Source: Giardia intestinalis
Lineage: Eukaryota
Strand: one strand, 5' to 3'
Assembly (NCBI GenBank): GCA_000002435.2
Contig: CM018793.1
Length of the DNA stretch: 64,000 bases
Shown here: one piece after another, positions 16,007-30,762 of the stretch
Layout: the number at the start of each line of letters is the position of its first letter
Numbering within the stretch: the first letter of the stretch is position 1
The notes under the pieces: generated by a model
What the model saw: the letters and a program-made list of their open reading frames with translations, nothing else
The model's database searches: none
What the model was told of the DNA's origin: nothing
Position numbers and translations under genes: made by a program

Positions 16007-18247
16007 CTAGTCAGCAGAGGCCTCTACTTGAAAGAAATTCATATGTACTACGGGTGTCTCATAGCTCTGCGTATTTTCAGAGCTGTGGTACATCTCTACT
16101 GACGCAGATTGTAATTCGTTAGACATATGGACTTCACTTTTGTTCACAACGCTACCCTCCTTTTCGTGCCCTACACTGTGTGAATTCTCGTCGCTTAGTT
16201 GATCATTCGGTGTTGCATGTGCTTCGCAGATATGCAAATTGGTGTTGAGTCGTATTTGAGCTGCTGACTGATGCTCATGGCGAAGAAGTGCTTGAGTTAC
16301 TGGTCTCTTTGAGGTATTGCTTGTCGATGATGATACATATCCAACTGAAAAGTGTTCAGAATCCATCTTGCTTGAGGGCTCTAATGTGTTAGTCCGCGTG
16401 GCAGAGCAACTTGATTCAGTAGGATGTTCATGTAACAGGCTCTTTTCCGAGTTGGCTACACTACTGTCTGTATATTTGTTTCCCGTGCTGTGGTTACTAT
16501 CGGGCCTATTTCGCTTCTGCACTTTTGGCTGTCCTCTTGTTCTCTTCTCCTTGGTAACCACTTGAGGCTTTGATTTTCTGTTCCCCTTAGCTGAAGATCT
16601 CTGGTTCTTGGTGCTTAGTGGACGCATTTGTTTCTTGGCTGATTCTACCTTTGAGATGGTCAGATCTGTCATCGTGTCTGCGCGAGAAAACAAAGTAAAT
16701 CGCTTAGTCTGCAAGATCAAGCCTACAATAGCGAGAAGAAACGCCGTTGCTTCTCCAAAGCCAAAGGCCAGGACATAGATACCTCCTGCGCCCTGCAGAT
16801 ACATTATTGCAATGAAAGAGGCAAGCACAGTCACTGATTTTCCAAAGGCCATAGTTAAAGCCCCTGCTCCATAGTTAGATCCCTGCATAGCACCCAAAAC
16901 GACGGCATAAAGGCCAGATGGAAGATGAAACAACGCAGATAGCTTCAGGTACCTGGTTATCTCAACATAGAACTCTTCAGAATTCAAAGTAGAGTACTCC
17001 GGATCTATTGCATTTGCTTGTGGAAGAAGTATAACTTTACGGAGAGTGGGTTTAGCGGCAAAGAAGATAGCTATGCATATCAGAGCATTCAGTAGTGTAG
17101 CATATAGGGCACCCCATAGAGTGATTGAGCGAGCTCTGTTATATCTACGTGCATAATATGCGATTTGAACAAGATAGGACACTACTACTTCAAAGCTAGC
17201 TGCACTAAAGGTTGTAGCAGTCGATGCACGTAAAAACAGAGACAATGCTGCTTTTCCATTAACCATTCCCTCATAGTCTGTATAGTAGGTGCCATATGCT
17301 CTGTATATTAGTAAGATGGTGACGCTTTGAAGAGTAAGATTAATCATTGATGGGAGGGACCTCAATAAAAGCGTGCCAAGAATCTTGACATTGATTGGAA
17401 CCAAATGCCTAACTTTTAAACGAAGATTATTGTTGTACACGATCCCATATAGATTGACCCTCATCAGGAGCAGGCTTATCCATACCGTCACAACGACGCC
17501 ACTAAGACAGTATGCGAGGAGAGGGTAAAGCAAAAGCCTGGATGGGTCAGCTGGTTGAGTGTGTGCATACAGGAATAGATTGAAAAGGCCTAGAAGAACG
17601 ATTGAAAGCGAAAACAGAACGAGGTTTTTGACTGTCATAAGAAAGTGCCTTCCTTGAATCATCATAATTGGATCTACTGCGTGAGTGAAGAGAGAAAGAA
17701 GGGGGACAAGAACTGCACTTAGGAGCATGGCAGACGATCCTAACTGACGATGAATAAGAGGACCTCCACCATCTAGTAGTGAAGATAGCTGTGGAGCCAG
17801 AGGAGAAAAGAGTGATATAAGAATGGCCAGGATGCTACATAAGAAAAGTGTGTGTGTATAGTAAATGCTGGAGTCTGTGTATCTCCGGTGGACTATTGCG
17901 TGCTTGATAAAGTGCGAGGAGATGTATGAGATGACGGTCGGAATGCCCCGGTAAAGGGGAAACCCGAACAGGAAAATGGCCGATTCCACATAGAATTGCT
18001 CTCGGCCATAGAGATGAAGAATCATTACAGTATCGATAGTGTGCCAAACACACACAAGAATGCCACAAATATGCATGCTCAGGCCGAGCCCCCACAGAGC
18101 CTGGTGGACATTTCGATTCAACCCGTGGTCTGTAATCTCGTAAACAACATCGTTGCATGTCTGTGCATCATTAGCCTCCTCTGCAGTACTCTTGATGGAG
18201 CTCTGCTCGTGAAGGTAAGCGATGGCAGAGGCATCGTTTTCAGACAT
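16007..18247 (-). CDS. polytopic membrane protein (about 12 TM segments) with a hydrophilic basic C-terminal tail; possibly a MOP-superfamily (MATE/Rft1-like) transporter
   Basis: 746 aa. The first ~500 aa are a run of hydrophobic helices separated by short loops; the last ~250 aa are Ser/Lys/Asn-rich. The family assignment rests on topology only and is weak. Confidence 0.7.
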   Translation of the reverse strand: MSENDASAIAYLHEQSSIKSTAEEANDAQTCNDVVYEITDHGLNRNVHQALWGLGLSMHICGILVCVWHTIDTVMILHLYGREQFYVESAIFLFGFPLYRGIPTVISYISSHFIKHAIVHRRYTDSSIYYTHTLFLCSILAILISLFSPLAPQLSSLLDGGGPLIHRQLGSSAMLLSAVLVPLLSLFTHAVDPIMMIQGRHFLMTVKNLVLFSLSIVLLGLFNLFLYAHTQPADPSRLLLYPLLAYCLSGVVVTVWISLLLMRVNLYGIVYNNNLRLKVRHLVPINVKILGTLLLRSLPSMINLTLQSVTILLIYRAYGTYYTDYEGMVNGKAALSLFLRASTATTFSAASFEVVVSYLVQIAYYARRYNRARSITLWGALYATLLNALICIAIFFAAKPTLRKVILLPQANAIDPEYSTLNSEEFYVEITRYLKLSALFHLPSGLYAVVLGAMQGSNYGAGALTMAFGKSVTVLASFIAIMYLQGAGGIYVLAFGFGEATAFLLAIVGLILQTKRFTLFSRADTMTDLTISKVESAKKQMRPLSTKNQRSSAKGNRKSKPQVVTKEKRTRGQPKVQKRNRPDSNHSTGNKYTDSSVANSEKSLLHEHPTESSCSATRTNTLEPSSKMDSEHFSVGYVSSSTSNTSKRPVTQALLRHEHQSAAQIRLNTNLHICEAHATPNDQLSDENSHSVGHEKEGSVVNKSEVHMSNELQSASVEMYHSSENTQSYETPVVHMNFFQVEASAD

Positions 18248-18322
18248 TCGCTAAAAAATTCAAAAGCACACACAGACGGACTTTCGCTGTAACCTAAATA
18301 GGGTCACTTGCTGCTATATCAT

Positions 18323-18547
18323 TTACATCATGCTTGCGCCGCTAAGAAGACGGAAGACAGGGTAGCTTACAGTTTTGATTGCAAAGCCCGTTACACCGAT
18401 GGCAATGATTCCCATGCCTGTGGAAACAATGAGCTTTTTCACCTCCTCTGAAGTAGGCTTATCGCATCCATTCCAGAAACGACGCATGCTCGCGATTTCT
18501 CCCTTAACTTTTGCCACCGGGCCTTGGTTGGTGTTCTTTCCAGACAT
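18323..18547 (-). CDS. SEC61G: Sec61 gamma subunit (SecE/Sss1 family) of the ER translocon
   Basis: 74 aa. FWNGCDKPTSEEVKKLIVSTGMGIIAIGVTGFAIKTV aligns with the Sec61-gamma core ([36 protein letters not shown]) and has a single C-terminal TM helix. Confidence 0.8.
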   Translation of the reverse strand: MSGKNTNQGPVAKVKGEIASMRRFWNGCDKPTSEEVKKLIVSTGMGIIAIGVTGFAIKTVSYPVFRLLSGASMM

Positions 18548-18748
18548 TTTCTCTTTCCAGTTTTCTTTTAATTAAATTCACTTGTTCCATTTCAGCGAAA
18601 CGTCCTTGCCAGTTCCCGACGAGGTAGAGCACCGCGTGCGGCTGACTACGGTCTAGGAACAGCACTCTGTTGCTCTCGCTAGGAGGTACGTTAGCATATT
18701 GGAAGCAGCCCTGGGCGGTGTCTTTAAGACACAGTGTGGCACGTGGAC

Positions 18749-18765
18749 GCATTTACTACCTAAGT
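18749..18765 (-). promoter_or_regulatory. extended VSP-type polyadenylation signal (ACTTAGGTAGTAAAT) immediately 3' of the CRGKA stop codon
   Basis: The minus strand reads TGC CGC GGG AAG GCG TAG ACTTAGGTAGTAAATGC. This is the conserved 3' signature of Giardia VSP genes, containing the general AGTRAAY poly(A) signal. Confidence 0.65.
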
Positions 18766-19194
18766 CTACGCCTTCCCGCGGCAGAGGAACCACCAGCAGA
18801 GGAAGCCCACAAGCCCTCCTATAACGATGACAGCAGCCACAACAATGCCTGCAATAGCGCCAGTAGAAAGGCCGTTACTCTTGTTGGTGCCAGAAGACAC
18901 GCACGCGGTCTTCCCATCGTTCAGGCTGAATCCCTGGTCGCACACACACACCTTCTGGTCGTTGGCCGCGGAGTTCAGCGGGCAGCCCACGGCGCAGCTT
19001 CTTTTATCGAGTTGCACGTTCTGGCCAGAGACCTTGCAGTCCAGGCACGTCTGGTCGGGTTCTGCCCCGGCGCACGTCTTGCACCCTGCCGTGTCCAACC
19101 CTGATGCGCAGTTTGTGTTGGAAGCCACGCACGCGGTCTTCCCGCTGTCCTTTGCCAGCACGGTTGCACAAACTAGGAGAAATCCTACCAACAT
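18766..19194 (-). CDS. miniature VSP-like surface protein with signal peptide, a few CXXC motifs, a TM helix and a canonical CRGKA tail
   Basis: The track ORF (209 aa) starts at an upstream ATG. The internal ATG at 19192-19194 begins MLVGFLLVCATVLA, a typical signal peptide. The cysteine-rich ectodomain (CKTCAG, CLDC, GCPLN) is followed by a TM segment and ...FLCWWFLCRGKA*. The VSP poly(A) signal follows directly. Confidence 0.75.
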   Translation of the reverse strand: MLVGFLLVCATVLAKDSGKTACVASNTNCASGLDTAGCKTCAGAEPDQTCLDCKVSGQNVQLDKRSCAVGCPLNSAANDQKVCVCDQGFSLNDGKTACVSSGTNKSNGLSTGAIAGIVVAAVIVIGGLVGFLCWWFLCRGKA

Positions 19195-19982
19195 TAGCCG
19201 GAGTTCATGTGCCACTGCTCTTCTGTCAGGCTGATGTGTTGCCGCGAGCAGTGAGAGACAGCCGCTCTTACTCTCTTGATCAGTTGGACTGGAGAAAGAC
19301 GAGATAGGAGCATGCCCACCGGAGGCCAGTTGATAGCACGGTTCCCCCTGACTTCGATAGGAACAGGATGAGTGAGGGCCAGACTCAGATCGCACCTCTC
19401 TTGTGGAGTGATTGATTGGGGTGCACTCCTGTACATTGCTGTCGCTGTATCACTGGGCCCACCTGCAGGTGCGCTCAGAGATCCCACGGGTAAGCCGCGC
19501 CCACTTCCTGGTCGTCCGAAGACTATGGCTGGTTGTGGATAACATACTAAGAGCTCCTCTCCATCGATGCATCCAGAGCCCTGTGTGGTCCCAGTCGGCG
19601 TGCTCTGTCTGGGGCGCTCCGTGTCGGCCTCCAGGATCTGGCCTGCTCAGGGCCATACGAGCCGCTAGTATGCCCTCCTTGGCCTGCCATCGACAGCTCG
19701 CACTAGGCGCCTTGCTCGGGCAGTAACCAAGGTCACACCAAAGGGTGGCTCCGGATTGCAGTTAAAATCAGCGGCGGCTGTTGACTCCACTCCTTGTCCC
19801 AGCCACCGCAGAGGGTGCCCTGGGAGATGCTAGTAACAGTGCAGTTAGCAGCTTTGCAGGGCCGATGGGCGCTGGTGGCGTTCCCGTGTTCAGCCCCAAA
19901 AAGTTGCATAGACGCCTAGGTAACATGCTCAGCAGGCACCCTCAGTGTTATCTACTCTCTCAGGGGATGCCCCTACCTTGCT

Positions 19983-21335
19983 GTGGAGGAGATTCAGCTC
20001 GATGGTTTGGATCAGCACGGTGTGGATGCTATTAAGCGTAGGCTGACCGCTCTTCTAGGCACCCTTCACCCAGACGTTCTCAAATACCACCAGGTGCTTA
20101 CAGACGGCAACGCGATCCTTGTTGTCACAGACCGCTGCTGTGGAGACCTCCGGCAGTTCATCACCGACTACAGGGACATTCACGAACCTATTCTCAGCAA
20201 GCTGGTCCTCTCCCTTCTGGGGCAGCTGGCTGGCGCCCTTGCCCACCTCCACGGGCTCAGCAGAGGTGCCCACAGCGGCTTGCCCTCTAGCGTTGTCCTC
20301 GAGCCCGACAACATCATGTTCGCTGGGGACAGGCGACGTGTCGTCCTTGGAGACTTCGGGTTCTGCAAGGGCATATTGAGTGGAGCTGCGAAGGCCGGCG
20401 ACCCCGCGTACATGGCCCCCGAGACACTCCTCTGCGGTGACATGACCCAAGCATCCGACGTCTGGAGCCTCGGGGCCATCGCATACGAGCTCGCCACCCT
20501 GAGGAAGCCGGACTTCCTAGAAGGTAAAGACCCAAAAGACGTCTTCGTTGACGGATGGAGGCCAGACCTGAGCGGTGTCGCAGACGACCTCGCAAGGAGC
20601 GTCCTTGAAGGAATGCTCGTCCTCGATCCTGCCGAGAGGCCGACAGCCAGAAGGCTTGTCCGTCTACTTCTGAGGCTTGACATCTCTGCTGATGAACAGG
20701 AGGCCCAAGACACAAGGCTAAAGGAGGCGCGCGCAGCCTTTGCAGACGCCTTGAATAGAGCCAACAACGAAACAGTAGCTCTTAGGAAGGACCCTCCTGA
20801 TCGAGCTACAAGAATGGACATCATCAGGGAGCAGTGTGCTATTGCCGCCAAGCTATTCAGGGAAATACAGGAGATTAAGGCAGAGATGGGCGAAACAGAC
20901 GAGCCAGACGAAAGGGAGGATTCAGAAGAGCCAGAGAAGAAGCACCTAATAGAGGAGGACGACTCCACCGACCTCATGAGGGCAGTCGATAGAAACGACG
21001 TGGAGGCCGTGAAGGCCCTCATACCACTCCAGGGGGGCACGAAGATGAAGGGATGCGCACTTGTAGGTGACTGGAAAATATACGAGGGAACTGCCCTGAT
21101 GAGAGCGGCGGTATATGGATACACAGAGATCGTGGGGCTGCTCGTGGAGAAAGAGAAGGGACTGAAAGATAGCAACGGATGGACGGCCCTCATGTGGGCT
21201 GTGAAGAACGATCACACAGATTGTGTCAGGCTCCTCATGAGAGAGAAGGACTTGAAGGGTTATAATGGAGGGACTGCCCTTGAAATGGCTAAGTTATGGA
21301 GAAACCATGAGATAGTCGCCCTCCTCTCAGAGTAA
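19983..21335 (+). CDS. NEK-family (pseudo)kinase domain fused to C-terminal ankyrin repeats; N-lobe disrupted by a frameshift, and the homologous N-terminus lies in frame +2 from ATG 19781
   Basis: The kinase C-lobe is recognisable (VLGDFGF = DFG, PAYMAPE = APE, DVWSLGAIAYEL). The catalytic-loop HRD is degenerate (VLEPDN), and the beta-3 lysine is replaced (YLAVEEI vs paralog YLELAVKVI). Three to four ankyrin repeats sit at the C-terminus (TALMRAAVYGYTEIVGLLV...). The track ORF starts at GTG; upstream ORF 19781-20035 in another frame is homologous to the N-terminus of the NEK at 48.3-50.6 kb. Confidence 0.7.
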   Translation: MEEIQLDGLDQHGVDAIKRRLTALLGTLHPDVLKYHQVLTDGNAILVVTDRCCGDLRQFITDYRDIHEPILSKLVLSLLGQLAGALAHLHGLSRGAHSGLPSSVVLEPDNIMFAGDRRRVVLGDFGFCKGILSGAAKAGDPAYMAPETLLCGDMTQASDVWSLGAIAYELATLRKPDFLEGKDPKDVFVDGWRPDLSGVADDLARSVLEGMLVLDPAERPTARRLVRLLLRLDISADEQEAQDTRLKEARAAFADALNRANNETVALRKDPPDRATRMDIIREQCAIAAKLFREIQEIKAEMGETDEPDEREDSEEPEKKHLIEEDDSTDLMRAVDRNDVEAVKALIPLQGGTKMKGCALVGDWKIYEGTALMRAAVYGYTEIVGLLVEKEKGLKDSNGWTALMWAVKNDHTDCVRLLMREKDLKGYNGGTALEMAKLWRNHEIVALLSE

Positions 21336-22749
21336 ACGCCTTAAAGCCAATGGATTGAAGCGCCAGTGCCACATTTTACTGACCACCGAGAGACGGAAAA
21401 GTGCCGCCGCTCCCCTATAAAGCAGTCTAAGTAGCGCACCACAAGAACTAACCATATAGAGCGAACGTATCTCCACGGCTTGCCTGCTTCTGAGGACGCT
21501 TGGTGGCTCGTGGGAGCTGCTCAGACAACCTTATTTTTGCTTTGATGCATTGAGCAAGATGAGGGTGTAATAGTAGTTGACAACAAATGAAGGCAGGTCT
21601 CTCGTTCGTTCACCGCCCGGCATCTGAGACAAGAACTCGAGCTCGGGGGTCGCCCACCTCTAGAGAAGAACCTTGTGCTTCCTCCCTAGGGGGCCGTTGT
21701 TGCCCTGGGGTGCGTTCCTCTGGCCAACCTGGGCCAGCTGCTCCCCCGTATCCGATGGGCACCCGCTACCCCAGGGCCACGCAGCTCACCTTCCGCCTCA
21801 TCGAAGCTGGTCTGCCACCTGCCGGCCGAGCAATTCGTACCCCGTACAAGTCCTCCCCGCGGCAAGTGGACCCCGCCCGTTCGCCGCCCCAAGCCCAGAG
21901 TCCGGTATTCGGGTCAGAACGTCGGCCGAGTCCGGGGGAGAAGAGCCAGGCCGTGCACGCCAGCTCCGGCATCAACCGGAACGCCCTCCAGACCAGCCGA
22001 GGAACTAAGGCGCAATCTCTGCCGCCCAGTAGCACGACCGAGGCCGCGGTGTTGGGCGGACGACAGCACCAGAGCGCCCAGCTCGTCCAGGGCACTGCGA
22101 AGCGCCGCCCCTCGCAGGGGACACGCTCCGACGCCAGGAGAACGAGGGCCGCGGGCACTCATGAGCGCGCTTCCGGTGCTCCAGGTCCGGCCCGGGCCTC
22201 AGGAGCCCACTGAGACGGGGCGGTGGCACCGGGTGAACGTTGAACTAGTAGGAGCGGAAGAGCACGTGCCCGTCCTGCAGGAAAACCCTCCGCGATGAGG
22301 CCGTCCAGACGTATGCAGCACAGACACCGGATGTAGGGCGCTGCTGAGTGGAGTAATAGGAATAGAGAAGGACACCCCCCTCAGCACCCGTCGTGCGAAC
22401 GTGCTCAGGGGAGGGTACCTAACACCCCGCAGAGCCCCAGGTGAGAGCCGAGGAGACGTGCCTCGCTCACACAGCGGGGAAGCGGAGGAGCGGCATTCAC
22501 CACCCCACTGCCCGGCCTGCAGCCTCTGCCTCGCCTCGAGGGGGAGCTGCACCCTGACAGCGCCACCGACGACCAGCACCTTGCTATCCAGAGGGCCGGA
22601 TCAGGACGGCCTGGCCCCTGAGAGACAAGAGCCCCCTCAGCCATCGGAGAGCACGGACGGCCAGTCCACGGGGCTCGAAGTCTCCGGGCCTGCGCTGGCG
22701 AGTCCATCCGGGTGCAGGCCTTCAACGAGATCCTCGGCGCGATCCATAG

Positions 22750-23510
22750 GATGGGATGCGTGCTCTGTACGGTTCCGCCTGGCCCTTCCCCAAGAATGGG
22801 ACAGGACAAGCACGATCAACGGACGATCATGATTCGCTCCACAACACAGTTCCAAGGAGCTGCGTCGAGGCCTTCCTCCGGCTGCGACACGCTGCACTCC
22901 TGGACTCGGTCCCTCGGGGCCCTGCGCATGCCCCCATACTGCGTGGTACAGAACCTGCTCACCAGGAACTGAGGAGATACCTCGCTCACTGCCTTGCCGA
23001 CGACACATCCATCTTCCATAGTAGCAACAGTGATGCGACGGGGATAGCCACAGAGGCGACAGGCCTAGGAAATGCTATGGCTCGACGATCAGCACTGGGT
23101 GTAGGAGTACGGAGGGACAGGAGGCCTCTCTCCTGGCCGGGCTCGAAGGAGCCCCCAAGGCAACGGAGAGCCAAAGCTAGTGATGGCACTAATCACTCGC
23201 CGTGCTGGTTGAGACGGACCCACACGTGACCTATGTGAATCCCTCGACGAGCAAGTTGGGGCCCCTGGGGTGCTTGGCTGACAGAGGCGGACGAGTCCTG
23301 GCTGCCCACAACCAGCCGGCGGAAGGGGAGGTCCTAGAAGGCCCTGCGAGAAGCACAGCAGCTCCCAAGAGGATAGGGCAAACCTTCTTCTTCTCCCACG
23401 GGGATCTAGGACATCCGGCTCTCGGGTCTCGGACGGTGAGCGGGAGGTCCACTCAGAGCGATGGCTCGCATGGAGAGATTTACTTAGATAGCAGCCTTAG
23501 TGATACTCAG
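22750..23510 (+). mobile_element. highly degenerate non-LTR retrotransposon RT fragment (GilD-like relic) at the right edge of GC-rich block 1
   Basis: The frame containing ...VPRGPAHAPILRGTEPAHQELRRYLAHCLADDTSIFH aligns with the intact-ish relic at 45.8-45.95 kb (GVPQGGPLSTLLF...FLAYADDIVAFH), and nucleotide similarity continues through atggacctgacgatcag / atggctcgacgatcag. The surrounding 21.5-23.5 kb is about 65% GC with open frames on all six strands. Confidence 0.4.
23170..23493 (+). repeat. ~320-bp dispersed direct repeat, copy 1 (the second copy is at 55765-56082)
   Basis: Near-identical to 55765-56082 (about 3 mismatches in 320). Both copies end at the same nucleotide (...gatttacttagatagca). 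Flanking homology decays upstream, and the sequences diverge immediately downstream. Confidence 0.85.
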
Positions 23511-23594
23511 TTAGCCATTTAAAATATCAAACAAAATACCACATGGTGAAAGCTAATAAAGGACACAGCTGTAGTTTCTAGCGCAGTTACTATT

Positions 23595-26069
23595 TTAATG
23601 GGTGCTTGCAACGATAGACTGCTTGTAGAGCAGTGGAACTCCGGCCTTCTTTCGGAAAACGAAAAACCAAACCAGCACAGCCGCCACACCGCCGACGACG
23701 AGGACCACGCCGATGGCGATGCCAGAGATAGCACTAGACGAGAGGGCGGACTTTTTAGAGGTGTTATCGTACTCCAGACATATGGGCTTGACTGCGCCCT
23801 CTGGAACCACGCAGAGGCTGCACTTGGAGATCGCCTTGTGACACGCCTTGCACGTGCTCTCGGAGAAGTAGTACCCGGCCAGGCAGTCGAAGCATGCCTC
23901 CCCATGAGGACAGGTGGCGCAGCCCTTGGAGCACGCCTTGCACGCCCCCTTCTCCAGGTAGAACCCGCTGTTGCAGGCGCTACAGGCTCCACCGCTACAC
24001 ATTGCACAGTTCGTCGGGCATGTAAGGAGCGTTCCGTTGTACGTTATCCCGTACCCGGCCACGGTGCTGTCACACCAGCCGTCGCTCGCCTTCGTGCAGA
24101 CAGTCTTCCCGGGGAGGAGCGTGGAGGTGTAGCACCCCCCGTTGAGCCTGAAGGAGTTCGAGCTGCAAACAACACACCTACCGGCGGCGACATTCGCGCA
24201 CGCGATGCCAGCCGCCCGCGAGCTGGAGGAGGTGCACGCCCCGTTGTTGGGGTACTCCGTGCTCTTGACGCAGCGCGAGCAGTAGCTGGTCCCGCCCACC
24301 GTGAGCCCGCACTCTGCACAGCTGCTGTCCTGCACGCACTGCGGGACGCACGATCCCTTGGCACCGTCGCTGTACTGCAGCCGCCTCTTGGCAGGGCAGG
24401 AGGTGCAGTCGCCGGATGCCGGTCCGCTGCACGTGGCGCACTCAGAGCTGCACGGCTTGCATCCTCCCGAGCCCTCGACGTAGAGCCCGTCCCTGCATGC
24501 CTTGCACTTGGATTCCGACTCGCAGACTGCGCAGTTGCCGAGCGTGCACGCCACGCACCTCGAGACGCCGCCCACGGTGGCCTTGTAGTACCCGGCGGAG
24601 CCCAGGCAGTCCTTCACGCACAGACCGTGGGGGTCGAGGCTGTTGCCATCGGTACACTTTGTGCACACGTCTCTGTCCTCGCACGTGTCGCAGTTGGGGT
24701 CCTTGCACTTGGTCGCCACGCACTGACTATCGGAGAGTGTGTAGCCATACTTGCACTTCTTACAGCTCGATTCATCACACTCAGCGCAGTTCTCCACCGC
24801 GCACCCGACACACTTCCCGTCCTTCAGATAGGACTCGTCATCGCATGCGCAGCTGTGGACCGAGGATGAGGACTCCTGCACGCCCTTCTGCCCCTTGGGA
24901 CAGCTGGCCAGGCAGCTCCTCTTATCCAGGCTCAGGTAGAGGTCGCGGCACTCCAGACACTGAAGACTACTGTCCTTCATCTCACACCTTTGACATCCCT
25001 CTATTCCCCCGTTGGCTGAGTCCCCGCAGCGCCAGCATCCGTTGTTCTTGGTGAACACCTCTTTGGTTGAGCTGTTACATGCGGTACAAACGTTTTCTTT
25101 CACTGCTTGACAAATCTGAGATTCTATTTGATCCGAAACATCTTTAAATAAGTAGCATCCACCATAAAACAAGAAATATTGCCTGTTGCCCTCATTCTTA
25201 CAAGATGTACACCTTCCCGATTCAGGATCCTTTACGCAAATGTCTTCAAACCCAGTTATTGATAGACAGAGGCCATTCAGAGGAATCTCTGATGGGTTGG
25301 TGCAGCGAGAGCATAGGGATTGCCCAGACATCTCCATGATATTCTCCGGTAGACAGATGCTGTTGCTTATTGGAGTATCTCTGGCATAACAAGCATAAAA
25401 GCTCCAAATGTGTGTTTCGGGACAGTATCCACAAAGACCATTGCTTGCACCTTCAGTGATGTGCTTACATCGATAATCATACGAGCATGTATTTTTGTGG
25501 TCTGAACATTGGTAGCAATTTGGGACCACTTCTTGCTTTATCCTTGAAGAGTTACAAACTAGACACCCATATATCCCACTATATCCACCAAAGCCCACAG
25601 TGTCTCCGCATGAGATGCATCGCTCGGGAGTGCTAGTGCTGGGATTGGTGAAGGCTACAGATGGCTGCGTTTCGTTTGTTTTTGCACATTCTACACAGAT
25701 CCCCTTTTCTGCTCGTTCACAAATGAACTTTGTCCAGTCTTGAGATAAATTATAGCACCCACCATAAAAAACAAAGTGGTCATCGCCGCACTTAGTGCAC
25801 CATCCGCCTGTTTGAGATTTAGCACAGCCAGACCGAGTAGCCTTGGAATCTCCAGCCAGAACACACTTGCCATCAATCGGTACGTATCCAGACTCGCATT
25901 CTGTACAAAGAAATCGCGAGGTTACACCCAATATGCAACTATTTGGAAGGCAATTTGGTATTTTACCTTCGCAGAAGTATCCAAACCCATTGCGATATAT
26001 AGGTGCCTCCTCAGAGAAGAACTCTGCCAGAAGACAAACCAATAGCAGAACTGATAAAGATCGTGACAT
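23595..26069 (-). CDS. high-cysteine membrane protein (HCMP; VSP-like ectodomain without a CRGKA tail)
   Basis: 824 aa with signal peptide MSRSLSVLLLVCLLAEFF, more than 80 Cys arranged as repeated CXXC/CXC/GCY modules, a single C-terminal TM (ISGIAIGVVLVVGGVAAVLVWFFVF) and a short cytoplasmic tail RKKAGVPLLYKQSIVASTH. Confidence 0.85.
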   Translation of the reverse strand: MSRSLSVLLLVCLLAEFFSEEAPIYRNGFGYFCEGKIPNCLPNSCILGVTSRFLCTECESGYVPIDGKCVLAGDSKATRSGCAKSQTGGWCTKCGDDHFVFYGGCYNLSQDWTKFICERAEKGICVECAKTNETQPSVAFTNPSTSTPERCISCGDTVGFGGYSGIYGCLVCNSSRIKQEVVPNCYQCSDHKNTCSYDYRCKHITEGASNGLCGYCPETHIWSFYACYARDTPISNSICLPENIMEMSGQSLCSRCTNPSEIPLNGLCLSITGFEDICVKDPESGRCTSCKNEGNRQYFLFYGGCYLFKDVSDQIESQICQAVKENVCTACNSSTKEVFTKNNGCWRCGDSANGGIEGCQRCEMKDSSLQCLECRDLYLSLDKRSCLASCPKGQKGVQESSSSVHSCACDDESYLKDGKCVGCAVENCAECDESSCKKCKYGYTLSDSQCVATKCKDPNCDTCEDRDVCTKCTDGNSLDPHGLCVKDCLGSAGYYKATVGGVSRCVACTLGNCAVCESESKCKACRDGLYVEGSGGCKPCSSECATCSGPASGDCTSCPAKRRLQYSDGAKGSCVPQCVQDSSCAECGLTVGGTSYCSRCVKSTEYPNNGACTSSSSRAAGIACANVAAGRCVVCSSNSFRLNGGCYTSTLLPGKTVCTKASDGWCDSTVAGYGITYNGTLLTCPTNCAMCSGGACSACNSGFYLEKGACKACSKGCATCPHGEACFDCLAGYYFSESTCKACHKAISKCSLCVVPEGAVKPICLEYDNTSKKSALSSSAISGIAIGVVLVVGGVAAVLVWFFVFRKKAGVPLLYKQSIVASTH

Positions 26070-27296
26070 GCCGAGTGTTATTCTTTATCAAATACCTATA
26101 GAATTTACATGCAATGAAGTAAGCAGGCTGTTGGGAAACCAGTTTCAGGAACAAGGTTATTGAATCAGCCTCCCTCACGATCCCCGGAAGAAGAGCATGG
26201 GCGCGTTGTTTGTAGAAAAACTCACTCTACTTACACGAATTGCCTGGTTACACGACAGCCTAGGCAGTCTGTGTCTAGGCGCCACAACAAAAGACGTCAT
26301 TCTATTCTGCTTGTATTCATTGTTAAAGAGACTACTTACGCTACAGCATCGACATGTTGATGCCCTACCGCTCCCGCAAGGTCTACGGTGCAGAGGGTTC
26401 CTCAGTGGAGACGCACTGGACGAACGCGTCTAGCACATAATGTATCTCACCAAGGGCTCTTCAGCTTCATGAACACCATTTCGGGTCGTGAGTGGGCACC
26501 TGTGGGCAAGCTCTTAGGGAGTTGCATGGCTTCAAGTAGTTGTCCATTCTATGACCTGGACAAGTCACGCGCCAAGGGCCAGCACTAACACCTCTGATAA
26601 GTAGGGTGCTATGAGGATAGCACTCCAAGGTCCGCTGGATGTCTGGGAGCACCAGCTCGCCAGAAGGCATCATTTGCCAGCACAGGCTATCCAGGTCTTC
26701 TTTCCTGGAAGGGATCGTGGCCACGGGGCTGTGTCTTTCTGCCCACCGGTGCCTCATTGTCCACAAGGCCCTCAATGCTTGAAGCATCGAGCCCAGAAGA
26801 TGTCCAGTCAGCAGAGTGCTGGCCTCCGCAATGACCGTTCGAGACTCATCAGTGCAGATCCAGTGTCGGGAGGATCTTCACTCCTTCCAGAGGCACGGCA
26901 CATCCAGCGAATCGTCGTCTGAGGCCTTCCCTGCACCCACTCAACAGTCTCTGTAGAGGGGCCTGACACGTGACCCTCTGCAGGCTGTGCTGAGTGAGGG
27001 TGCTGCTATTGCGTGATGGCATGGTCCTCCTCTCTTTTACCTGTAGGTGAGGCAGCCGATCACTACCAGCCTTTTATACCCGCTGACGTGCACGGCACAG
27101 CAAGAAGATTGACTGCATGGCTACCGTACCTGCCTGTGAACCGGGCGTAGGCAGAGCAGGGTGTCGTGGTCCGGTGGTGCCCAGAAGCTATGCAGAGGCA
27201 ATGGGCCTTTGATAGAGATGGCCTCAGGTGGAGGCTCGGCCGCACAGATGGAAACAACTACCAATAGAATCCACCAATGACGCGTTTACTCCTAAG

Positions 27297-27710
27297 TCAC
27301 GCCTTCCCTCTGCAAATGAACTCTACAAGACCACTTGCAACAACGATCACAGCCACAGAAATACCTGTAATAGTACCAGTAGAAGCACGCTTCTGTTAAC
27401 ACTAAAAGACACGCACTTGTTATCATCATCTAGAACAAATCGTCGTTACACTCTGTACACGTATTGCCGAGACTCCGTCACACGTGTTAGTCTCAGAGTT
27501 TGGCGTTCCCTGAGGGCACGTGGCGTAGCAGTCGCCTCTGTAGAGGTAGGTGTTCCCCTGGCACACCCCGTCGATTGGGACGTGCGTGGCAGCGCACTTT
27601 GTGTAAAGCTCTTTAATGATACTATAATGTTTAATATCTAAGCAAATATCTTCAGCTGTACAATTTCCATAGCCAGGACATTCTTTTGAAGCTACTAAGA
27701 CTAACTCACA
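27297..27710 (-). pseudogene. VSP gene 3' fragment (pseudogene): cysteine-rich ectodomain piece, TM helix, CRGKA stop and VSP poly(A) signal, with in-frame stops and no start
   Basis: Minus-strand translation gives ...ASKECPGYGNCTAEDICLDIKHYSIIKELYTKCAATHVPIDGVCQGNTYLYRGDCYATCPQGTPNSETNTCDG..., then three in-frame stops, then ...STGTITGISVAVIVVASGLVEFICRGKA* followed by TGA-CTTAGGAGTAAAC. There is no upstream signal peptide or ATG. Confidence 0.6.
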
Positions 27711-28701
27711 ACGTATTGAAACGATTGAGTAAACATTTTTCCTACTGGTTCTTAAGTACTTATCGTAAAAAAGCCTCGCTAACTTGAGTTCTAGATCACA
27801 ACAATTGATAAGTGAAGAAGCTCTTATAAATCATAGCACAATCCTAAAGTCCGATATTTAGGATTGCTTCGCACACACCACCTTACTACAATCACAAGTA
27901 ACAACAAAAGCTGAGAGAACTGATACGTCAGTACCATCCGATAATGTAGCTGGCAATAAATTACTTTAGTGTAACTATAATAAAATGCCTTTGATAAGAT
28001 TGTTTAACAAAAGGTAGCCATAATGAATATATAAATGCTAGATTCATGAACCTCCTGACGTTGAGCATTAGGCAGTGTAATGCTACCAAAGTATGTAGGC
28101 AAATAAAAAGCATAGTAAACTCTATAAGTGGTATTGACTTTTCTTTTAAGATGGTTCATGTGGACCCAGTGGCAGAGGCAGCTGCGATAGCATGAGTAGC
28201 TATACTTTGGCTAACAATTACATATGGTGATGATACGTGAATCAGCACCGTTGCACTGTCAATTCTAAAAGATCTGTCCGATAGACGCTGTATCATAGTA
28301 AGCAAAAGATTGCCATGACGGACAGTAAGTAAACAGCTATAAAATAGATGATTGAGGTCCAGAATACTGAGCTGTATAGACAAAATTCATGGGGAATGTC
28401 TGCAGAATCTTTACAGAGCAACTGCACGGTACAAACGAATACGCATATCTGAGAGCTGTCTCTACAGTAGGAGTGAAAGTGTTATAAAGATCCTTCTTGT
28501 GATGGTAGCGACAGTGTAAGCATAGATACTACTTCAGAGTGTCTGGTGACGATTAAGGAAGATCGAGTAGGAGGATCCGATGCAGGGAATTGATCTGCAT
28601 TCTCTACTCATTAGAACCTGCTCTACTAGGGCATACAGCCAGACTCCATGGCTACTGAGAGAAGACGATCCTCAAGAACATAACGATTTCTTTTTGTTTA
28701 A

Positions 28702-30762
28702 ATGGATATCGAGGGTCTGAAGCAGATGTTTAGGGTCTGGGGTCTGTTTGAAGAGCAAATAGAGGCAATTCTGATGGCGCAGCGAACCGAAACTGACGTA
28801 CTGACAGCATGCTATGCTGTCTGTCACTCGATTTTTACCACCACATCTCAAGACCTTTTGGCGCAGCCATTCGAAAAGACTGTACTAAAGAATTCTGCCT
28901 TGTTGTCCACAGTGGGGACTAGTATGCGGCTCTTCACAATCGCATCAAAGGACATGTATGGCTTCACCACTAAAGCCATGCCTCAGAGCCTTATTTCTAG
29001 ATTGTCTCCAGAGAAGTACCTCCCATGCGAACTAGGCACAGGCACTAGTACGATCTCCTCCCATCCCCTTTCCGTTGATGACCTTTCCATCTTTTCAATC
29101 GTGGACGGAAAAGTATCAGCGCTTGACCTATCGCATGGAAACCGTGTTTCCCTCTCATTTGAATTTGCTTGCCTTGGAGAGATATATGCAGACGTAGAGC
29201 ATATTGATTTTAGTTTTAATCCCCGTCTTACGGCAGAGAAGATCTCACAGTTTTTATCCATACATGTATTTAAGCGTCTTAAATCCGTGAGAATGATAGG
29301 AACAGATCATAACTTTCGATCTAACGAAGAAGCTCTGGACACAATGCGTCATTGGGACGGTTGTTCAAGACTTGAACAAGTTATCATATTCGATCCTGTT
29401 TTGGGAAGAAAGTATCTCACGCTAACTTTTTCAGACTTGAAAGATACCATTAAAGGATGTGTAGAGAAAGAGACAGAGCCGCTTGTTGTGGACACTGTTG
29501 TGTTTTTGGCCTCAGATATCTCTGCTTTTGAATTGCTATGTTTGGAAACGCCTCAGTTTCTTGCCAATCTTAAACACATATATATTGAGCTCCCTGAGGA
29601 TTATGCATTTGAGAGACTATTTCACATCAAGCCTCAGATAAAGACAATAAATGGAGTTCCCATCTTTAATCACATTGTTTCAGAATTAGCGCTGACGACT
29701 CACGATTCTGCAATAAGGGCCCAGATGATACAGTTGGTAATTGACAAGTTCTATGAGACTTGTAGGCCCATTGCTGTAGATTATGAAGGGGACTGTTATA
29801 GCAAGTCAGGTAGCTATATTTTTGACCCTAACAAAGATTACTTTGCATGCTCACTGTTTCCAAGTCCCCTCACCAACCCCAAGCTGGACTACCACACCTC
29901 CGAAGATTTCTTACATGCACCACTTAATTCCTCTGCATTAATCACCCTCTCTCAATCCTCAAACATTGCCTTCATTTGGGGTAGGCAGCAGCCATTAGAG
30001 ACGTCTCCTAGATATCGCATCACACTTCTTCAATCAAACACTGTGGACAGCAGCGACAACAATTTGGTGCTTGCGCTTAAATCTGGCTTTCCACTCTGCA
30101 GAACAACTTCGTGCCCCAGTGAAACTTTGAAATTGTCTGTGCATGCAGATGCAGATGCAACCAACTGGAGCATCCTTCCTGCTTTCCGTGTCGCCCTCCT
30201 CTCTTCCATTATTGCTAATCTTCCATACACTCCATATGTCTTCGAGTCCACCTGCACGGGAATAGCCATGTGCGCTTATTGGATAAATAACATGCGCAAG
30301 AGATTTGAGAATAGCACATTTGTAGGATATCTTCCATCTATCAACAGCGTAGTTTATGGTGTGCCGCCTATTCTTTGTTACCTCTTGATGCGCTCTGTCA
30401 AGGACGTCATCTTATTAGTTCTCCCTACTACCACCACTACAGGACATGAAGTGTATCTCTACGATTGCGTCACAGAGGTCCATATTGTCGATGAGGTCGT
30501 TACCGGATTTAGTATTAAAGATCTGCGAAGGAGAAGCTTCCAGTACCATAATGTAGTAGTCAACCCCTCCACAGCATTGCCTACTAGTGCAGATAATCCC
30601 CCGTTTAACCTAATGACCGTTATTGAGCAGTCTTTAGAGCTTATCGATCTAAGAGGATTTGCCGAGAAGAAGAGCATCCTTAAGATCAAGACATATATAG
30701 TTCCCACACTTGATCGAGACAGTAACTGTAGCTACTACAGCGTACTCTCTGACATTTTGTAG
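28702..30762 (+). CDS. hypothetical protein, 686 aa (possible leucine-rich-repeat-like segments)
   Basis: Long ORF with balanced composition. It begins right after the AT-rich desert, and the next gene starts 18 bp after its stop. No confidently recognisable domain. Confidence 0.55.
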   Translation: MDIEGLKQMFRVWGLFEEQIEAILMAQRTETDVLTACYAVCHSIFTTTSQDLLAQPFEKTVLKNSALLSTVGTSMRLFTIASKDMYGFTTKAMPQSLISRLSPEKYLPCELGTGTSTISSHPLSVDDLSIFSIVDGKVSALDLSHGNRVSLSFEFACLGEIYADVEHIDFSFNPRLTAEKISQFLSIHVFKRLKSVRMIGTDHNFRSNEEALDTMRHWDGCSRLEQVIIFDPVLGRKYLTLTFSDLKDTIKGCVEKETEPLVVDTVVFLASDISAFELLCLETPQFLANLKHIYIELPEDYAFERLFHIKPQIKTINGVPIFNHIVSELALTTHDSAIRAQMIQLVIDKFYETCRPIAVDYEGDCYSKSGSYIFDPNKDYFACSLFPSPLTNPKLDYHTSEDFLHAPLNSSALITLSQSSNIAFIWGRQQPLETSPRYRITLLQSNTVDSSDNNLVLALKSGFPLCRTTSCPSETLKLSVHADADATNWSILPAFRVALLSSIIANLPYTPYVFESTCTGIAMCAYWINNMRKRFENSTFVGYLPSINSVVYGVPPILCYLLMRSVKDVILLVLPTTTTTGHEVYLYDCVTEVHIVDEVVTGFSIKDLRRRSFQYHNVVVNPSTALPTSADNPPFNLMTVIEQSLELIDLRGFAEKKSILKIKTYIVPTLDRDSNCSYYSVLSDIL

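What the first reader, a model, noticed from the sequence alone, without database searches (positions are those of the whole stretch)
26070..28701. VSP 3'-end pseudogene fragment next to a ~1-kb AT-rich gene desert downstream of the HCMP gene
About 2.6 kb without a convincing gene is unusual for this compact genome. Within it, 27297-27710 (minus) encodes a stop-interrupted VSP C-terminus (CxxC ectodomain piece ... STGTITGISVAVIVVASGLVEFICRGKA*) that keeps the downstream CTTAGGAGTAAAC signal. The 5' two-thirds of the gene have been lost. From 27.65 to 28.7 kb the sequence drops to roughly 35-38% GC, against about 49% for the coding neighbours, with no ORF over 75 aa. Together with the HCMP immediately upstream, this looks like a degenerated surface-antigen locus. 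The AT-rich kilobase could hold promoter or other non-coding function for the 686-aa gene that follows.
Basis: seen in the sequence. Interest (0 to 1): 0.5.

Follow-up and report, generated by a model that had tools for sequence, protein, structure and literature searches.

The report
Decayed small VSP gene, gene-poor flanks
The 2.6-kb "gene desert" in this Giardia WB window is three ordinary pieces side by side: the non-coding upstream flank of a duplicated cysteine-rich membrane-protein gene, a complete but frameshift-riddled small surface-antigen (VSP) gene, and a fast-evolving AT-rich spacer. This pattern is already known to surround VSP genes.

Summary
The window is Giardia intestinalis WB. 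The 686-aa gene is GL50803_005324 and the HCMP is KAE8304656. No protein accession lies between them.

**The dead VSP is real but misdescribed.** It is not the last third of a large gene. It spans 27297-27736 (minus) and aligns from start codon to CRGKA tail and poly(A) signal with intact small VSPs of 168-194 aa. Four frame-breaking deletions destroy it. In-frame deletions, a lost CXXC cysteine and AT drift add to the decay. WB, DH (A2) and an environmental assemblage-A contig share every lesion. In isolate P15 the same position holds an intact 424-aa VSP.

**26070-~27275** is the HCMP's 5' flank. It was copied with the HCMP in a 3.6-kb segmental duplication (94% to a paralogous locus). It shows no coding signature and no Pfam or Rfam match.

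**27737-28701** (38.8% GC) is colinear with P15 at 72.8% identity, below synonymous-site identity (77%). Only the last ~40 bp and one 105-bp block (28178-28282, 87.5%) are conserved.

Published work already reports gene-poor VSP flanks, frameshifted VSP pseudogenes and VSP/HCMP/NEK clusters at synteny breaks. Interest is low.

The parts
23595..26069 (-). Intact HCMP ("High cysteine membrane protein VSP-like", KAE8304656 / XP_001705828), 824 aa. Context gene.
   Evidence: Pfam VSP E=4.5e-73. Substitutions against the DH ortholog and paralog pile up at one codon position (64/26/26, p=4e-6).
23638..27275 (.). A ~3.6-kb segmentally duplicated block: the HCMP body plus 1.2 kb of its 5' flank.
   Evidence: blastn gives 94.2% over 3616 bp to DH locus L013 8818-12432, which holds the paralogous 809-aa HCMP. 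Reading the boundaries shows homology fading at ~27253-27275 and starting inside the HCMP cytoplasmic tail. WB carries a 94%-identical 809-aa paralog on the same 4.02-Mb record.
26070..27275 (-). Non-coding 5' flank of the HCMP (53.6% GC), with no recognisable gene.
   Evidence: Paralog identity is 93.5% here, about the same as the coding sequence at 93.8%. Substitutions show no codon periodicity (p=0.37-0.89). The ~100-aa ORFs on both strands change mostly by amino-acid replacements. Six-frame Pfam found nothing. Rfam at E<=1 found nothing. tblastn with VSP and HCMP proteins found nothing meaningful. The proximal ~420 bp aligns weakly with the upstream region of a P15 family member.
27284..27296 (-). 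Damaged extended VSP poly(A) signal, ACTTAGG-AGTAAAC.
   Evidence: Intact relatives read ACTTAGGTAGTAAA[C/T]. The pseudogene lacks the T.
27297..27736 (-). Full-length but dead small VSP gene: ATG at 27736-27734, TGA at 27299-27297.
   Evidence: It aligns end to end with VSPs of 168, 190 and 194 aa and with the first ~115 codons of the P15 syntenic 424-aa VSP. Frame-breaking deletions, with junctions read by hand: 1 bp in the T-run after the ATG (~27731-27733), 40 bp (27468|27469), 1 bp (27441|27442) and 1 bp (27381|27382). In-frame gaps: 72 bp (27559|27560) and 15 bp removing FLCWW of the membrane helix (27322|27323). The reading frame moves 1 to 2 to 3 to 1. WB, DH and ENA contig L007 share all of these. 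The repaired translation scores 26.3 bits on Pfam VSP, below the 31.4 cut-off. GC is 44.8% against ~54% in intact relatives.
27737..28701 (.). AT-rich divergent spacer (965 bp, 38.8% GC) between the dead VSP and GL50803_005324.
   Evidence: It is colinear with the P15 spacer (970 bp) at 72.8% identity with 9 gap openings. That is below the 4-fold-site identity of the neighbouring genes (77%) and is the lowest of 11 intergenic intervals. No ORF is conserved between WB and P15. No other copy exists in the window or the fetched loci. No Rfam hit and no ncRNA 3' motif. It is not alignable upstream of ~28662 in assemblage B or in two further divergent assemblies.
28178..28282 (.). A 105-bp conserved non-coding block inside the spacer, function unknown.
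   Evidence: WB-P15 identity is 87.5% against 68-72% in the flanking spacer. Column-shuffle permutation gives p=0.005. Stops or a frameshift interrupt every frame in P15. The consensus fold is unremarkable (z=-1.3).
28662..28701 (+). Probable core promoter and 5' UTR of GL50803_005324.
   Evidence: Identity to P15 is 92.5%. This is the only upstream stretch still alignable in assemblage B and in the ERR3333378/ERR3333379 assemblies. The promoter role is inferred from published evidence that ~50 nt upstream suffices in Giardia.
28702..30762 (+). GL50803_005324, a 686-aa hypothetical protein. Context gene.
   Evidence: Exact match to KAE8304657 / XP_037902134. No Pfam domain. Orthologs are present in DH, P15, GS-B and two further assemblies.
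18766..19194 (-). Intact 142-aa VSP (KAE8304652). Its 3' flank is orthologous to the 3' flank of the P15 424-aa VSP. It marks the left edge of the ~8.6 kb absent from P15.
   Evidence: Pfam VSP E=2.8e-19. Window 16004-18864 matches L005 4988-7854, and homology resumes only at 27466.

Best explanation
The interval 26070-28701 is three unrelated pieces of ordinary Giardia non-coding DNA. They sit together at a recombination-prone VSP/HCMP/NEK cluster.

1. **26070-~27275** is the upstream flank of the intact HCMP. It was carried along when a 3.6-kb block (HCMP plus flank) was duplicated within assemblage A. It is not protein-coding.
2. **27297-27736 (minus)** is a complete small VSP gene that died before the A1/A2 split. 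A 1-bp deletion just after the ATG and three more frame-breaking deletions scramble the frame. Part of the membrane helix is gone, one CXXC cysteine is lost, the initiator and poly(A) motifs are each hit, and G/C-rich codons have drifted towards A/T. It makes no VSP protein (inferred). Its positional counterpart in assemblage E (P15) is an intact 424-aa VSP.
3. **27737-28701** is the ancestral divergent spacer between that VSP and GL50803_005324. It predates the A/E split and evolves about neutrally. The exceptions are the ~40 bp before the ATG (probable core promoter, inferred) and a 105-bp block of unknown role.

The long gene-free length simply reflects the known tendency of VSP and HCMP genes to sit in gene-poor surroundings.
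For: **Identity and annotation**
- The flanking proteins match WB GL50803_005324 and HCMP KAE8304656 exactly, with consecutive accessions.

**The VSP is full-length**
- phmmer and BLASTP align the translation from residue 3 with the signal peptides of the 190-aa and 194-aa VSPs.
- The DNA alignment shows ATG, ectodomain, membrane helix, CRGKA codons and poly(A) signal all present, with discrete deletions.
- The missing middle pieces turn up in the other two frames: CTECNDDLF and FVLDDDNKCVSFSVNRS.
- The repaired translation is 58-62% identical to the relatives in the multiple alignment. An intact 168-aa WB paralog, XP_001709727, also aligns end to end.

**Age of the decay**
- The same lesions occur in DH and in ENA contig L007. 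DH has additionally changed CRGKA to CRRKV.
- GC is 44.8% overall against ~54% in intact relatives, and 44.8% against 62-64% over the tail.
- The repaired translation falls below the Pfam cut-off, 26.3 against 31.4 bits.

**Synteny**
- P15 has an intact VSP at the same distance (~970 bp) and orientation from the 686-aa ortholog. Its first ~115 codons and its upstream spacer are colinear with WB.

**Duplicated flank**
- The block matches DH L013 at 94% and ends beside the pseudogene's poly(A) site.
- There is no codon periodicity in the flank, while the HCMP coding sequence gives p=4e-6.
- Pfam, Rfam and tblastn are all negative.

**Neutral spacer**
- Identity is 72.8% against 77% at 4-fold sites.
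- Its composition falls within the range of the other intergenic intervals, 27-58% GC.

**Literature**
- VSP-flanking intergenic regions have a median of 1280 nt against 79 nt genome-wide. WB has 217 Cys-rich pseudogenes, many split across three frames.
- VSP, HCMP and NEK genes are enriched at WB-P15 synteny breaks.
Against: - No expression data could be examined. Absence of transcription or of small-RNA production from any of the three pieces is not shown.
- The HCMP flank diverges between paralogs (6.5%) less than the HCMP third-codon positions do (9.0%; derived). That could mean weak constraint, or uneven gene conversion.
- The 105-bp block is conserved at coding-like levels, so the spacer is not entirely neutral.
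- Whether the ~8.6 kb that separates WB from P15 is an insertion in A or a deletion in E could not be decided.
- The 72-bp in-frame gap may be a natural length variant rather than damage. The intact WB paralog has a 63-bp gap at the same place.
Confidence: 0.82

Rival explanations
1. One reading: 27297-27710 is only the 3' third of a formerly large VSP. Its 5' two-thirds were deleted, and the AT-rich kilobase took their place.
For: - The syntenic P15 gene is longer, at 424 aa.
- The in-frame ORF ending in CRGKA is very short.
Against: - An ATG with VSP-type context and a signal-peptide-like N-terminus lies at 27736. It is colinear with the N-termini of four intact VSPs.
- The total architecture equals that of 168-194-aa VSPs.
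- The AT-rich spacer is orthologous to the spacer upstream of the intact P15 VSP, so it is not replacement DNA.
- The part of the P15 gene that WB lacks is the middle and 3' body, not the 5' end.
Confidence: 0.04
2. The stretch hides a functional non-coding gene or regulatory module. The 105-bp conserved block (28178-28282), and perhaps the co-duplicated HCMP flank, would encode a small or long ncRNA or a distal control element. The target could be GL50803_005324, or the VSP/HCMP genes through epigenetic on/off control.
For: - The block is 87.5% identical to P15 against ~70% around it, with permutation p=0.005.
- It contains a conserved UGAUGA (read).
- The HCMP flank is as conserved between paralogs as the coding sequence is.
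- Published work suggests Cys-rich genes have unusually large upstream regions.
Against: - No Rfam hit at E<=1.
- No Giardia ncRNA 3'-end motif anywhere in 26-28.8 kb.
- No excess consensus structure (z=-1.3).
- No convincing box D or terminal stem conserved in P15 (manual reading).
- The block is not found upstream of the orthologs in assemblage B or in the two other assemblies.
- Only two lineages are available, so the conservation could be a chance slow patch.
- Similar paralog identity in flank and coding sequence is also what a recent duplication or gene conversion predicts.
Confidence: 0.12
3. The dead VSP is kept because it is useful as nucleic acid. It could be a donor for recombination or gene conversion that builds new VSPs, or a source of sense/antisense RNA feeding RNAi-type VSP silencing.
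For: - VSP modules are clearly shuffled. The N-terminal module occurs in VSPs of 168, 190, 194, 273, 424 and 546 aa.
- A near-identical copy of the pseudogene tail (2 mismatches in 105 nt) sits at a different locus on NC_051857.1, annotated pVSP GL50803_0040233. This shows recent copying or conversion.
Against: - The sequence is drifting to AT, and even invariant VSP elements are accumulating damage: the membrane helix, the CRGKA codons in DH, and the poly(A) signal. That is what unconstrained decay predicts.
- No expression data are available.
Confidence: 0.08
4. 26070-27275 is a relic of a transposable element or of another decayed gene, rather than plain HCMP upstream DNA.
For: - Retrotransposon relics are reported between VSP/CRMP pairs.
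- HCMP flanks share scattered repeats. Window 23176-23493 matches 55765-56082 at 97%. Window 22166-22614 matches the region upstream of a P15 HCMP at 70%.
Against: - Six-frame Pfam finds no reverse transcriptase, endonuclease or any other domain.
- No similarity to VSP or HCMP proteins.
- No second copy in the window apart from the paralogous block.
- The proximal ~420 bp is HCMP-associated in P15 too.
Confidence: 0.1

Closest known systems
Annotated VSP pseudogenes (pVSP, 'Cys-rich type I pseudogenes') of G. lamblia WB, for example GL50803_0040233 (Rodriguez-Walker et al. 2022, bioRxiv 10.1101/2022.03.07.483299)
   Same: - The coding sequence is split over all three frames by indels, with the membrane helix and CRGKA recoverable in one frame.
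- GL50803_0040233 differs from window 27297-27401 at only 2 of 105 nt.
   Different: - GL50803_0040233 is a different locus, on NC_051857.1, with a different 3' flank and an intact GACTTAGGTAGTGAAT signal. It is annotated as a 105-nt tail only.
- The copy here keeps the whole small-gene architecture.
- Whether the window's copy is itself annotated could not be determined, because the held Table S7 is truncated.
Intact small VSPs: WB XP_001709727.1 (168 aa), DH DHA2_153211 (201 aa; 190-aa form P0001), P15 VSP P0002 (194 aa)
   Same: - The same module order: signal peptide, KEVCTKC..THVP.DG.C, YLYRGGCY..CPQGTPN.ETNTCDGV, TCTECNDGFV, VNKS, membrane helix, CRGKA.
- BLASTP gives 47-49% identity gaps included, and the multiple alignment gives 58-62%.
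   Different: - Those genes are open reading frames scoring 83-85 bits on Pfam VSP (measured for the 190- and 194-aa proteins), with ~54% GC.
- This one has four frameshifts, retains only one CXXC, lacks FLCWW in the helix, and scores 26 bits even after repair.
P15 (assemblage E) syntenic 424-aa VSP, contig ACVC01000109 (L005 7756-9030)
   Same: - The same position and orientation, ~970 bp from the GL50803_005324 ortholog.
- The first ~115 codons and the whole upstream spacer are colinear with WB.
   Different: - After codon ~120 the P15 gene continues with ~300 residues of ectodomain. That part is absent from WB here and resembles another P15 VSP (69% to P0069).
- Its 3' flank is orthologous to the flank of the other WB VSP at 18766.
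- One lineage has therefore recombined between VSP genes. The direction is unresolved.
Gene-poor VSP/CRMP neighbourhoods and VSP/HCMP/NEK clusters at synteny breaks (Xu et al. 2020 as cited; Jerlstrom-Hultqvist et al. 2010, PMC3091692)
   Same: - A 965-bp spacer upstream of a VSP and a 1.2-kb flank upstream of an HCMP fit the published ranges: VSP median 1280 nt, CRMP mean 813 nt.
- About 8.6 kb holding a VSP 5' end, a NEK kinase and an HCMP is missing from P15. Assemblage B and two further assemblies have different neighbours.
   Different: Nothing of substance. This is one more instance.

Membership tests
VSP (variant-specific surface protein) gene, functional member | Uninterrupted ORF from ATG to CRGKA | tested here: not met
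   The ATG at 27736 is out of frame with the ectodomain. There are three further frameshifts and in-frame stops. The longest minus-strand ORFs are 45-46 aa.
VSP (variant-specific surface protein) gene, functional member | C-terminal CRGKA tail preceded by the conserved membrane helix (..GLVGFLCWWF.) | tested here: inconclusive
   CRGKA is encoded in WB, but the helix lacks FLCWW through a 15-bp deletion. DH and L007 read CRRKV.
VSP (variant-specific surface protein) gene, functional member | Multiple CXXC motifs in the ectodomain | tested here: not met
   Only CTEC survives, and it is in a shifted frame. CTKC has become YTKC, and two other motifs lie in the deleted segments. The intact relative P0002 has four.
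VSP (variant-specific surface protein) gene, functional member | Pfam PF03302 at or above the gathering score (31.4 bits) | tested here: not met
   The raw in-frame concatenation gives no hit at E<=0.01. The frame-repaired translation gives 26.3 bits, E=4.3e-6.
VSP (variant-specific surface protein) gene, functional member | Initiator / Kozak-like PyAATGTT at the start codon | tested here: not met
   The pseudogene reads AAAATGTT. The P15 syntenic VSP and the 194-aa VSP read CAATGTT.
VSP (variant-specific surface protein) gene, functional member | Extended poly(A) signal ACTTAGGTAGTRAAY just after the stop codon | tested here: inconclusive
   ACTTAGG-AGTAAAC is present but lacks one T. Whether it still works is not testable here.
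VSP pseudogene (pVSP) | Significant similarity to VSPs, a disrupted reading frame, and intact homologs elsewhere | tested here: met
   E=7.8e-18 and 1.4e-15 to VSPs and E=1.4e-24 to 5.7e-15 in the representative library. The lesions are mapped. Intact relatives exist in WB, DH and P15.
VSP pseudogene (pVSP) | Signs of relaxed constraint beyond a single lesion | tested here: met
   Four frameshifts, AT drift (44.8% against 54% GC), loss of a Cys, an Arg in the signal-peptide core, and tail codons altered in DH.
Giardia small ncRNA gene (snoRNA/snRNA class), considered for the spacer and its 105-bp block | 12-nt 3'-end processing motif [T/A/C]C[C/A]TT[T/C][A/T/C][C/T/A]T[C/T/A]AA downstream of the RNA (Hudson et al. 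2012, PMC3510501) | tested here: not met
   No match in 26070-28701. The only window matches are at 33313 and 62949.
Giardia small ncRNA gene (snoRNA/snRNA class), considered for the spacer and its 105-bp block | Match to a curated RNA family, or a conserved secondary structure | tested here: not met
   Rfam found nothing at E<=1 over 25900-28900. The alifold z-score is -1.3 for the block and at best -2.7 elsewhere in the spacer.
Protein-coding gene in 26070-27275 | Codon-periodic substitution pattern, a conserved ORF, or a domain match | tested here: not met
   Substitution phase counts are flat (p=0.37-0.89), while the HCMP control gives p=4e-6. ORF ends vary and the changes are mostly replacements. 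No Pfam match in six frames.

The most novel reading that the evidence does not exclude
The 105-bp block at 28178-28282 is conserved between assemblages A and E at coding-like levels. It sits in the middle of an otherwise neutrally evolving 1-kb spacer. The novel reading is that it is a functional distal element: a regulatory site or an unclassified small RNA tied to the on/off control of the adjacent VSP slot or of GL50803_005324. Giardia promoters are generally thought to need only ~50 bp.
Probability: 0.12. Interest if true: 0.45.

Novelty: new member of a known kind. Interest (0 to 1): 0.15.

Why it matters
This has little importance beyond annotation.

- It corrects the description of one locus: a whole small VSP pseudogene, not a 3' stub.
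- It shows that the "desert" needs no special explanation.
- It gives a clean A-versus-E example of a VSP slot that is alive in one assemblage and dead in another.
- VSP-VSP recombination has added or removed ~8.6 kb holding NEK and HCMP genes at this slot.

The example could serve studies of how the VSP repertoire turns over. The 105-bp conserved block is a cheap candidate for anyone testing whether Giardia has distal regulatory elements.

Tried and rejected
- **Rfam.** Gathering threshold on the whole window and E<=1 on 25.9-28.9 kb found nothing.
- **Six-frame Pfam of 26070-27296 (plus-strand frames running on into the pseudogene).** Stops were replaced by X. Nothing found. Passing raw DNA references failed because of the stops.
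- **tblastn with 26 VSP/HCMP proteins.** The HCMP flank, the AT-rich spacer and the GC-rich stretch 21336-23594 gave no real hits, so these are not recognisable decayed Cys-rich genes.
- **Self-BLAST and tandem-repeat search.** The finding region is not repetitive within the window.
- **C/D-box snoRNA reading of the conserved block.** UGAUGA is present, but no box D or terminal stem is conserved in P15.
- **Small ORFs in the spacer and the flank as genes.** This includes the 75-aa ORF that DH annotation calls ESU35095. None is conserved in P15, and none shows codon periodicity.
- **Locus look-ups.** The WB HCMP paralogs P0023 and P0045 were not on record. The DH paralog locus was used instead.
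- **P15 paper supplements.** A search for this synteny break found nothing.
- **Polarity of the 8.6-kb difference.** Assemblage B and the ERR3333378/9 assemblies are rearranged at the same point, so they are uninformative. Look-ups were then exhausted.
Full report
**Origin and context**

The window is Giardia intestinalis WB clone C6. The 686-aa ORF at 28702-30762 is identical to GL50803_005324 (KAE8304657 / XP_037902134). The 824-aa ORF at 23595-26069 (minus) is the "High cysteine membrane protein VSP-like" KAE8304656. Both lie on a 4,018,654-bp record. The two accessions are consecutive, so no protein is annotated between them. Pfam places the HCMP in the VSP family (E=4.5e-73) and finds nothing in the 686-aa protein.

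**Checking the observation**

The minus strand ends ...STGTITGISVAVIVVASGLVEFICRGKA* at 27297, followed by CTTAGGAGTAAAC.
- The segment 27650-28700 is 38.6% GC, against 43.6% for the 686-aa gene, 54.4% for the HCMP and 50.8% for the window.
- The largest ORF in that segment is 75 aa.
- No tandem repeat or intra-window repeat touches the region.

**The VSP remnant is a whole gene**

A database search with the in-frame translation returned two small VSPs, of 190 aa and 194 aa (the latter from P15). The BLASTP alignment starts at their signal peptides. I then aligned the DNA with these genes and with the syntenic P15 gene. The alignment shows an ATG at 27736-27734, the ectodomain, the membrane helix, the CRGKA codons and the poly(A) signal, all in order.

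The gene is interrupted as follows (junction coordinates read by hand):

| Lesion | Junction | Effect |
|---|---|---|
| 1-bp deletion in the T-run after the ATG | ~27731-27733 | frameshift |
| 72-bp gap | 27559\|27560 | in-frame |
| 40-bp deletion | 27468\|27469 | frameshift |
| 1-bp deletion | 27441\|27442 | frameshift |
| 1-bp deletion | 27381\|27382 | frameshift |
| 15-bp deletion removing FLCWW of the helix | 27322\|27323 | in-frame |

- The pieces that seem missing in frame 1 appear in frames 2 and 3, as CTECNDDLF and FVLDDDNKCVSFSVNRS.
- A frame-repaired 147-aa translation is 58-62% identical to the intact relatives in the multiple alignment. BLASTP, counting gaps, gives 47-49%.
- A library-wide HMMER search added an intact 168-aa WB paralog, XP_001709727 on the 2.76-Mb record. 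It also added module-shuffled VSPs of 273 and 546 aa.
- That WB paralog naturally lacks 63 bp where the pseudogene lacks 72 bp. The 72-bp gap may therefore be a length variant rather than damage.

*Signs of long decay*
- GC is 44.8% against ~54% in intact relatives. Over the tail it is 44.8% against 62-64%.
- The first Cys of CTKC has become Tyr, and an Arg sits in the signal-peptide core.
- The initiator reads AAAATGTT instead of CAATGTT, and the poly(A) signal lacks one T.
- The repaired protein scores 26.3 bits on Pfam VSP, below the 31.4 cut-off. The intact 190- and 194-aa relatives score 83-85 bits.
- All indels are shared by DH (A2) and by an environmental assemblage-A contig. Logan short-read contigs of WB-like samples are identical over the part they cover. 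The lesions are therefore real and predate the A1/A2 split.
- DH has gone further, changing the tail to CRRKV.

**Synteny**

*DH.* The locus is colinear with WB at 95-97%.

*P15 (assemblage E).*
- The 746-aa gene (WB 16007-18247) is followed by a 74-aa ORF, an intact 424-aa VSP on the minus strand, ~970 bp of spacer, and then the 686-aa ortholog.
- blastn aligns window 16004-18864 with the left part and window 27466 onward with the right part.
- The first ~115 codons of the P15 VSP, together with the spacer, are therefore orthologous to the WB pseudogene and its spacer.
- The 3' flank of the P15 VSP is orthologous to the flank of a different, intact WB VSP at 18766-19194 (KAE8304652, 142 aa).
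- The ~8.6 kb in between has no P15 counterpart. It holds the 5' end of that VSP, a NEK kinase with ankyrin repeats, a GC-rich ORF-poor stretch, the HCMP and its flank.

*Other assemblies.* Assemblage B (GS-B) has two VSP-family ORFs on the other strand upstream of the ortholog. ERR3333378 has a NEK kinase there. The ERR3333379 contig ends 248 bp upstream of the ortholog, so its neighbour is unknown.

This is a synteny breakpoint of the kind already reported to be enriched in VSP, HCMP and NEK genes. Two routes are possible: the A lineage gained the 8.6 kb by recombination between VSP genes, or the E lineage lost it by fusing two VSPs. I could not decide between them.

**The left 1.2 kb (26070-~27275)**

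- The HCMP has a 94%-identical 809-aa paralog in WB and in DH.
- The DH paralog locus aligns with window 23638-27253 at 94.2% over 3616 bp.
- Reading the ends shows that homology starts inside the HCMP cytoplasmic tail. It fades at ~27253-27275, roughly 10-30 bp short of the pseudogene's poly(A) signal.
- The 1.2 kb is therefore the HCMP's 5' flank, copied together with the gene.
- Between paralogs it is 93.5% identical, against 93.8% for the coding sequence.
- Substitutions in the coding sequence concentrate at one codon position (64/26/26, p=4e-6). In the flank they are flat in every sub-interval (p=0.1-0.9).
- ORFs of ~100 aa persist on both strands, but their ends vary and the changes are mostly replacements.
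- Pfam in six frames, Rfam at E<=1, and tblastn with 26 VSP/HCMP proteins are all negative.
- About 420 bp next to the HCMP start can still be aligned weakly with the upstream region of the closest P15 family member (69% protein identity). The proximal part is thus old and HCMP-associated.
- Within the block, WB and DH orthologs differ by 5-6%, against 1-2% outside it. In DH, part of the flank is closer to its own paralog (97.2%) than to WB (93.6%). This suggests gene conversion.

**The AT-rich kilobase (27737-28701)**

- It aligns with the P15 spacer over its whole length (965 bp against 970 bp) at 72.8% identity with nine gap openings.
- The flanking genes are 89-90% identical, and their 4-fold degenerate sites are 77% identical. 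The spacer is therefore evolving at least as fast as silent sites.
- It is the least conserved of eleven intergenic intervals compared. Its 38.8% GC falls inside their range of 27-58%.
- Its composition is ordinary. Only its length stands out, and that length is ancestral to A and E and sits upstream of a VSP slot.
- Published figures make the length unremarkable. Intergenic regions have a median of 79 nt and a mean of 392 nt genome-wide. Next to VSPs the median is 1280 nt and the mean 2131 nt. Next to HCMP-type genes the median is 363 nt and the mean 813 nt.
- No ORF is shared between WB and P15.
- No other copy exists in the window or in the fourteen fetched loci.
- There is no Rfam hit and no match to the Giardia ncRNA 3'-end motif.
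- Assemblage B and the two other assemblies align only from ~28662 onward.

*Two conserved exceptions*
- 28662-28701 is 92.5% identical to P15. It fits a short core promoter and 5' UTR for the 686-aa gene (an inference).
- 28178-28282 is 87.5% identical, against 68-72% around it. Column-shuffle permutation gives p=0.005. This block is not coding, because stops or a frameshift interrupt every frame in P15. It has no notable consensus fold (z=-1.3). It contains a conserved UGAUGA but no conserved box D or terminal stem. Its role is unknown and it may be a chance slow patch.

**Comparison with what is known**

- WB RefSeq lists 320 pseudogenes, of which 217 are Cys-rich and ~89% VSP-like. Many are split across all three frames by indels.
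- Adam et al. 2010 had already noted short internal VSPs without a start codon as likely pseudogenes.
- Table S7 of the 2022 preprint lists pVSP GL50803_0040233 on NC_051857.1. It is a 105-nt tail that differs from window 27297-27401 at two positions. It has a different 3' flank with an intact poly(A) signal.
- That entry is therefore a paralogous copy. It probably explains why short-read contigs break at window 27347 and 27430 (an inference).
- Whether the window's own copy is annotated could not be established, because the held table is truncated.

**Verdict**

The object is one more VSP pseudogene in a gene-poor, recombination-prone Cys-rich gene cluster. It stands out only for being a complete small gene whose positional counterpart is alive in assemblage E. 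The interest score is low. The only loose end with any upside is the 105-bp conserved block.

Noticed in passing
window 62949-62960 (-), with upstream region to ~63105: There is an exact copy of the commonest Giardia ncRNA 3'-end processing motif, TCCTTTACTCAA. It lies in a 315-bp intergenic gap, ~140 nt downstream of an AT-rich AAAATTAAAATGG initiator-like element. This is probably a small ncRNA gene. Rfam finds nothing there at E<=1.
   Followed up: partly
window 21336-23594: A second ORF-poor stretch of 2.26 kb lies on the other side of the HCMP. It is GC-rich (61.6%, with local peaks of 70%). The nine longest ORFs have no Pfam match, and tblastn with VSP/HCMP proteins finds nothing. Window 22166-22614 is 70% identical to a segment 1.8-2.3 kb upstream of a P15 HCMP (L014 441-961), in a non-colinear position.
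   Followed up: partly
window 23176-23493 and 55765-56082: A 318-nt direct repeat at 97% identity. One copy lies just 3' of the HCMP. The other lies in another ORF-poor stretch, 3' of the 1045-aa ORF at 56276-59413. Nearby, window 55587-55680 matches L014 2197-2292 at 71%. This may be a dispersed non-coding element of Cys-rich gene flanks.
   Followed up: partly
window 18864-27466 versus P15 locus L005: About 8.6 kb is present in assemblage A (WB, DH) but absent at the syntenic site in P15, where a single 424-aa VSP bridges the gap. Its 5' end is orthologous to the WB pseudogene. Its 3' flank is orthologous to that of the WB 142-aa VSP at 18766-19194. This looks like VSP-VSP recombination, with the direction unresolved.
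   Followed up: partly
window 23638-27275 versus L006 and L013 (DH): Inside the duplicated HCMP block, WB and DH orthologs are only 93.5-95.3% identical, against 98-99% just outside it. In DH, 26070-26460 is closer to its own paralog (97.2%) than to WB (93.6%). This suggests gene conversion between the two HCMP copies.
   Followed up: partly
window 44396-44599 and 47349-47552: An inverted repeat with 204-nt arms, 87% complementary and 2.7 kb apart. It lies in a region of ankyrin-repeat ORFs, next to a NEK-kinase gene.
   Followed up: no
DH locus L006 8723-8950 (= window 28156-28383, minus): The DH annotation calls a 75-aa protein (inferred to be ESU35095) inside the AT-rich spacer. The ORF is not conserved in P15 and is probably spurious.
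   Followed up: yes
window 28702-30762 and orthologs: GL50803_005324 has no Pfam domain. Its orthologs differ in length between assemblies (666/687, 702 and 710 aa), and their identity to the WB protein is 76%, 68% and 71% respectively. It is an uncharacterised Giardia-specific protein.
   Followed up: no
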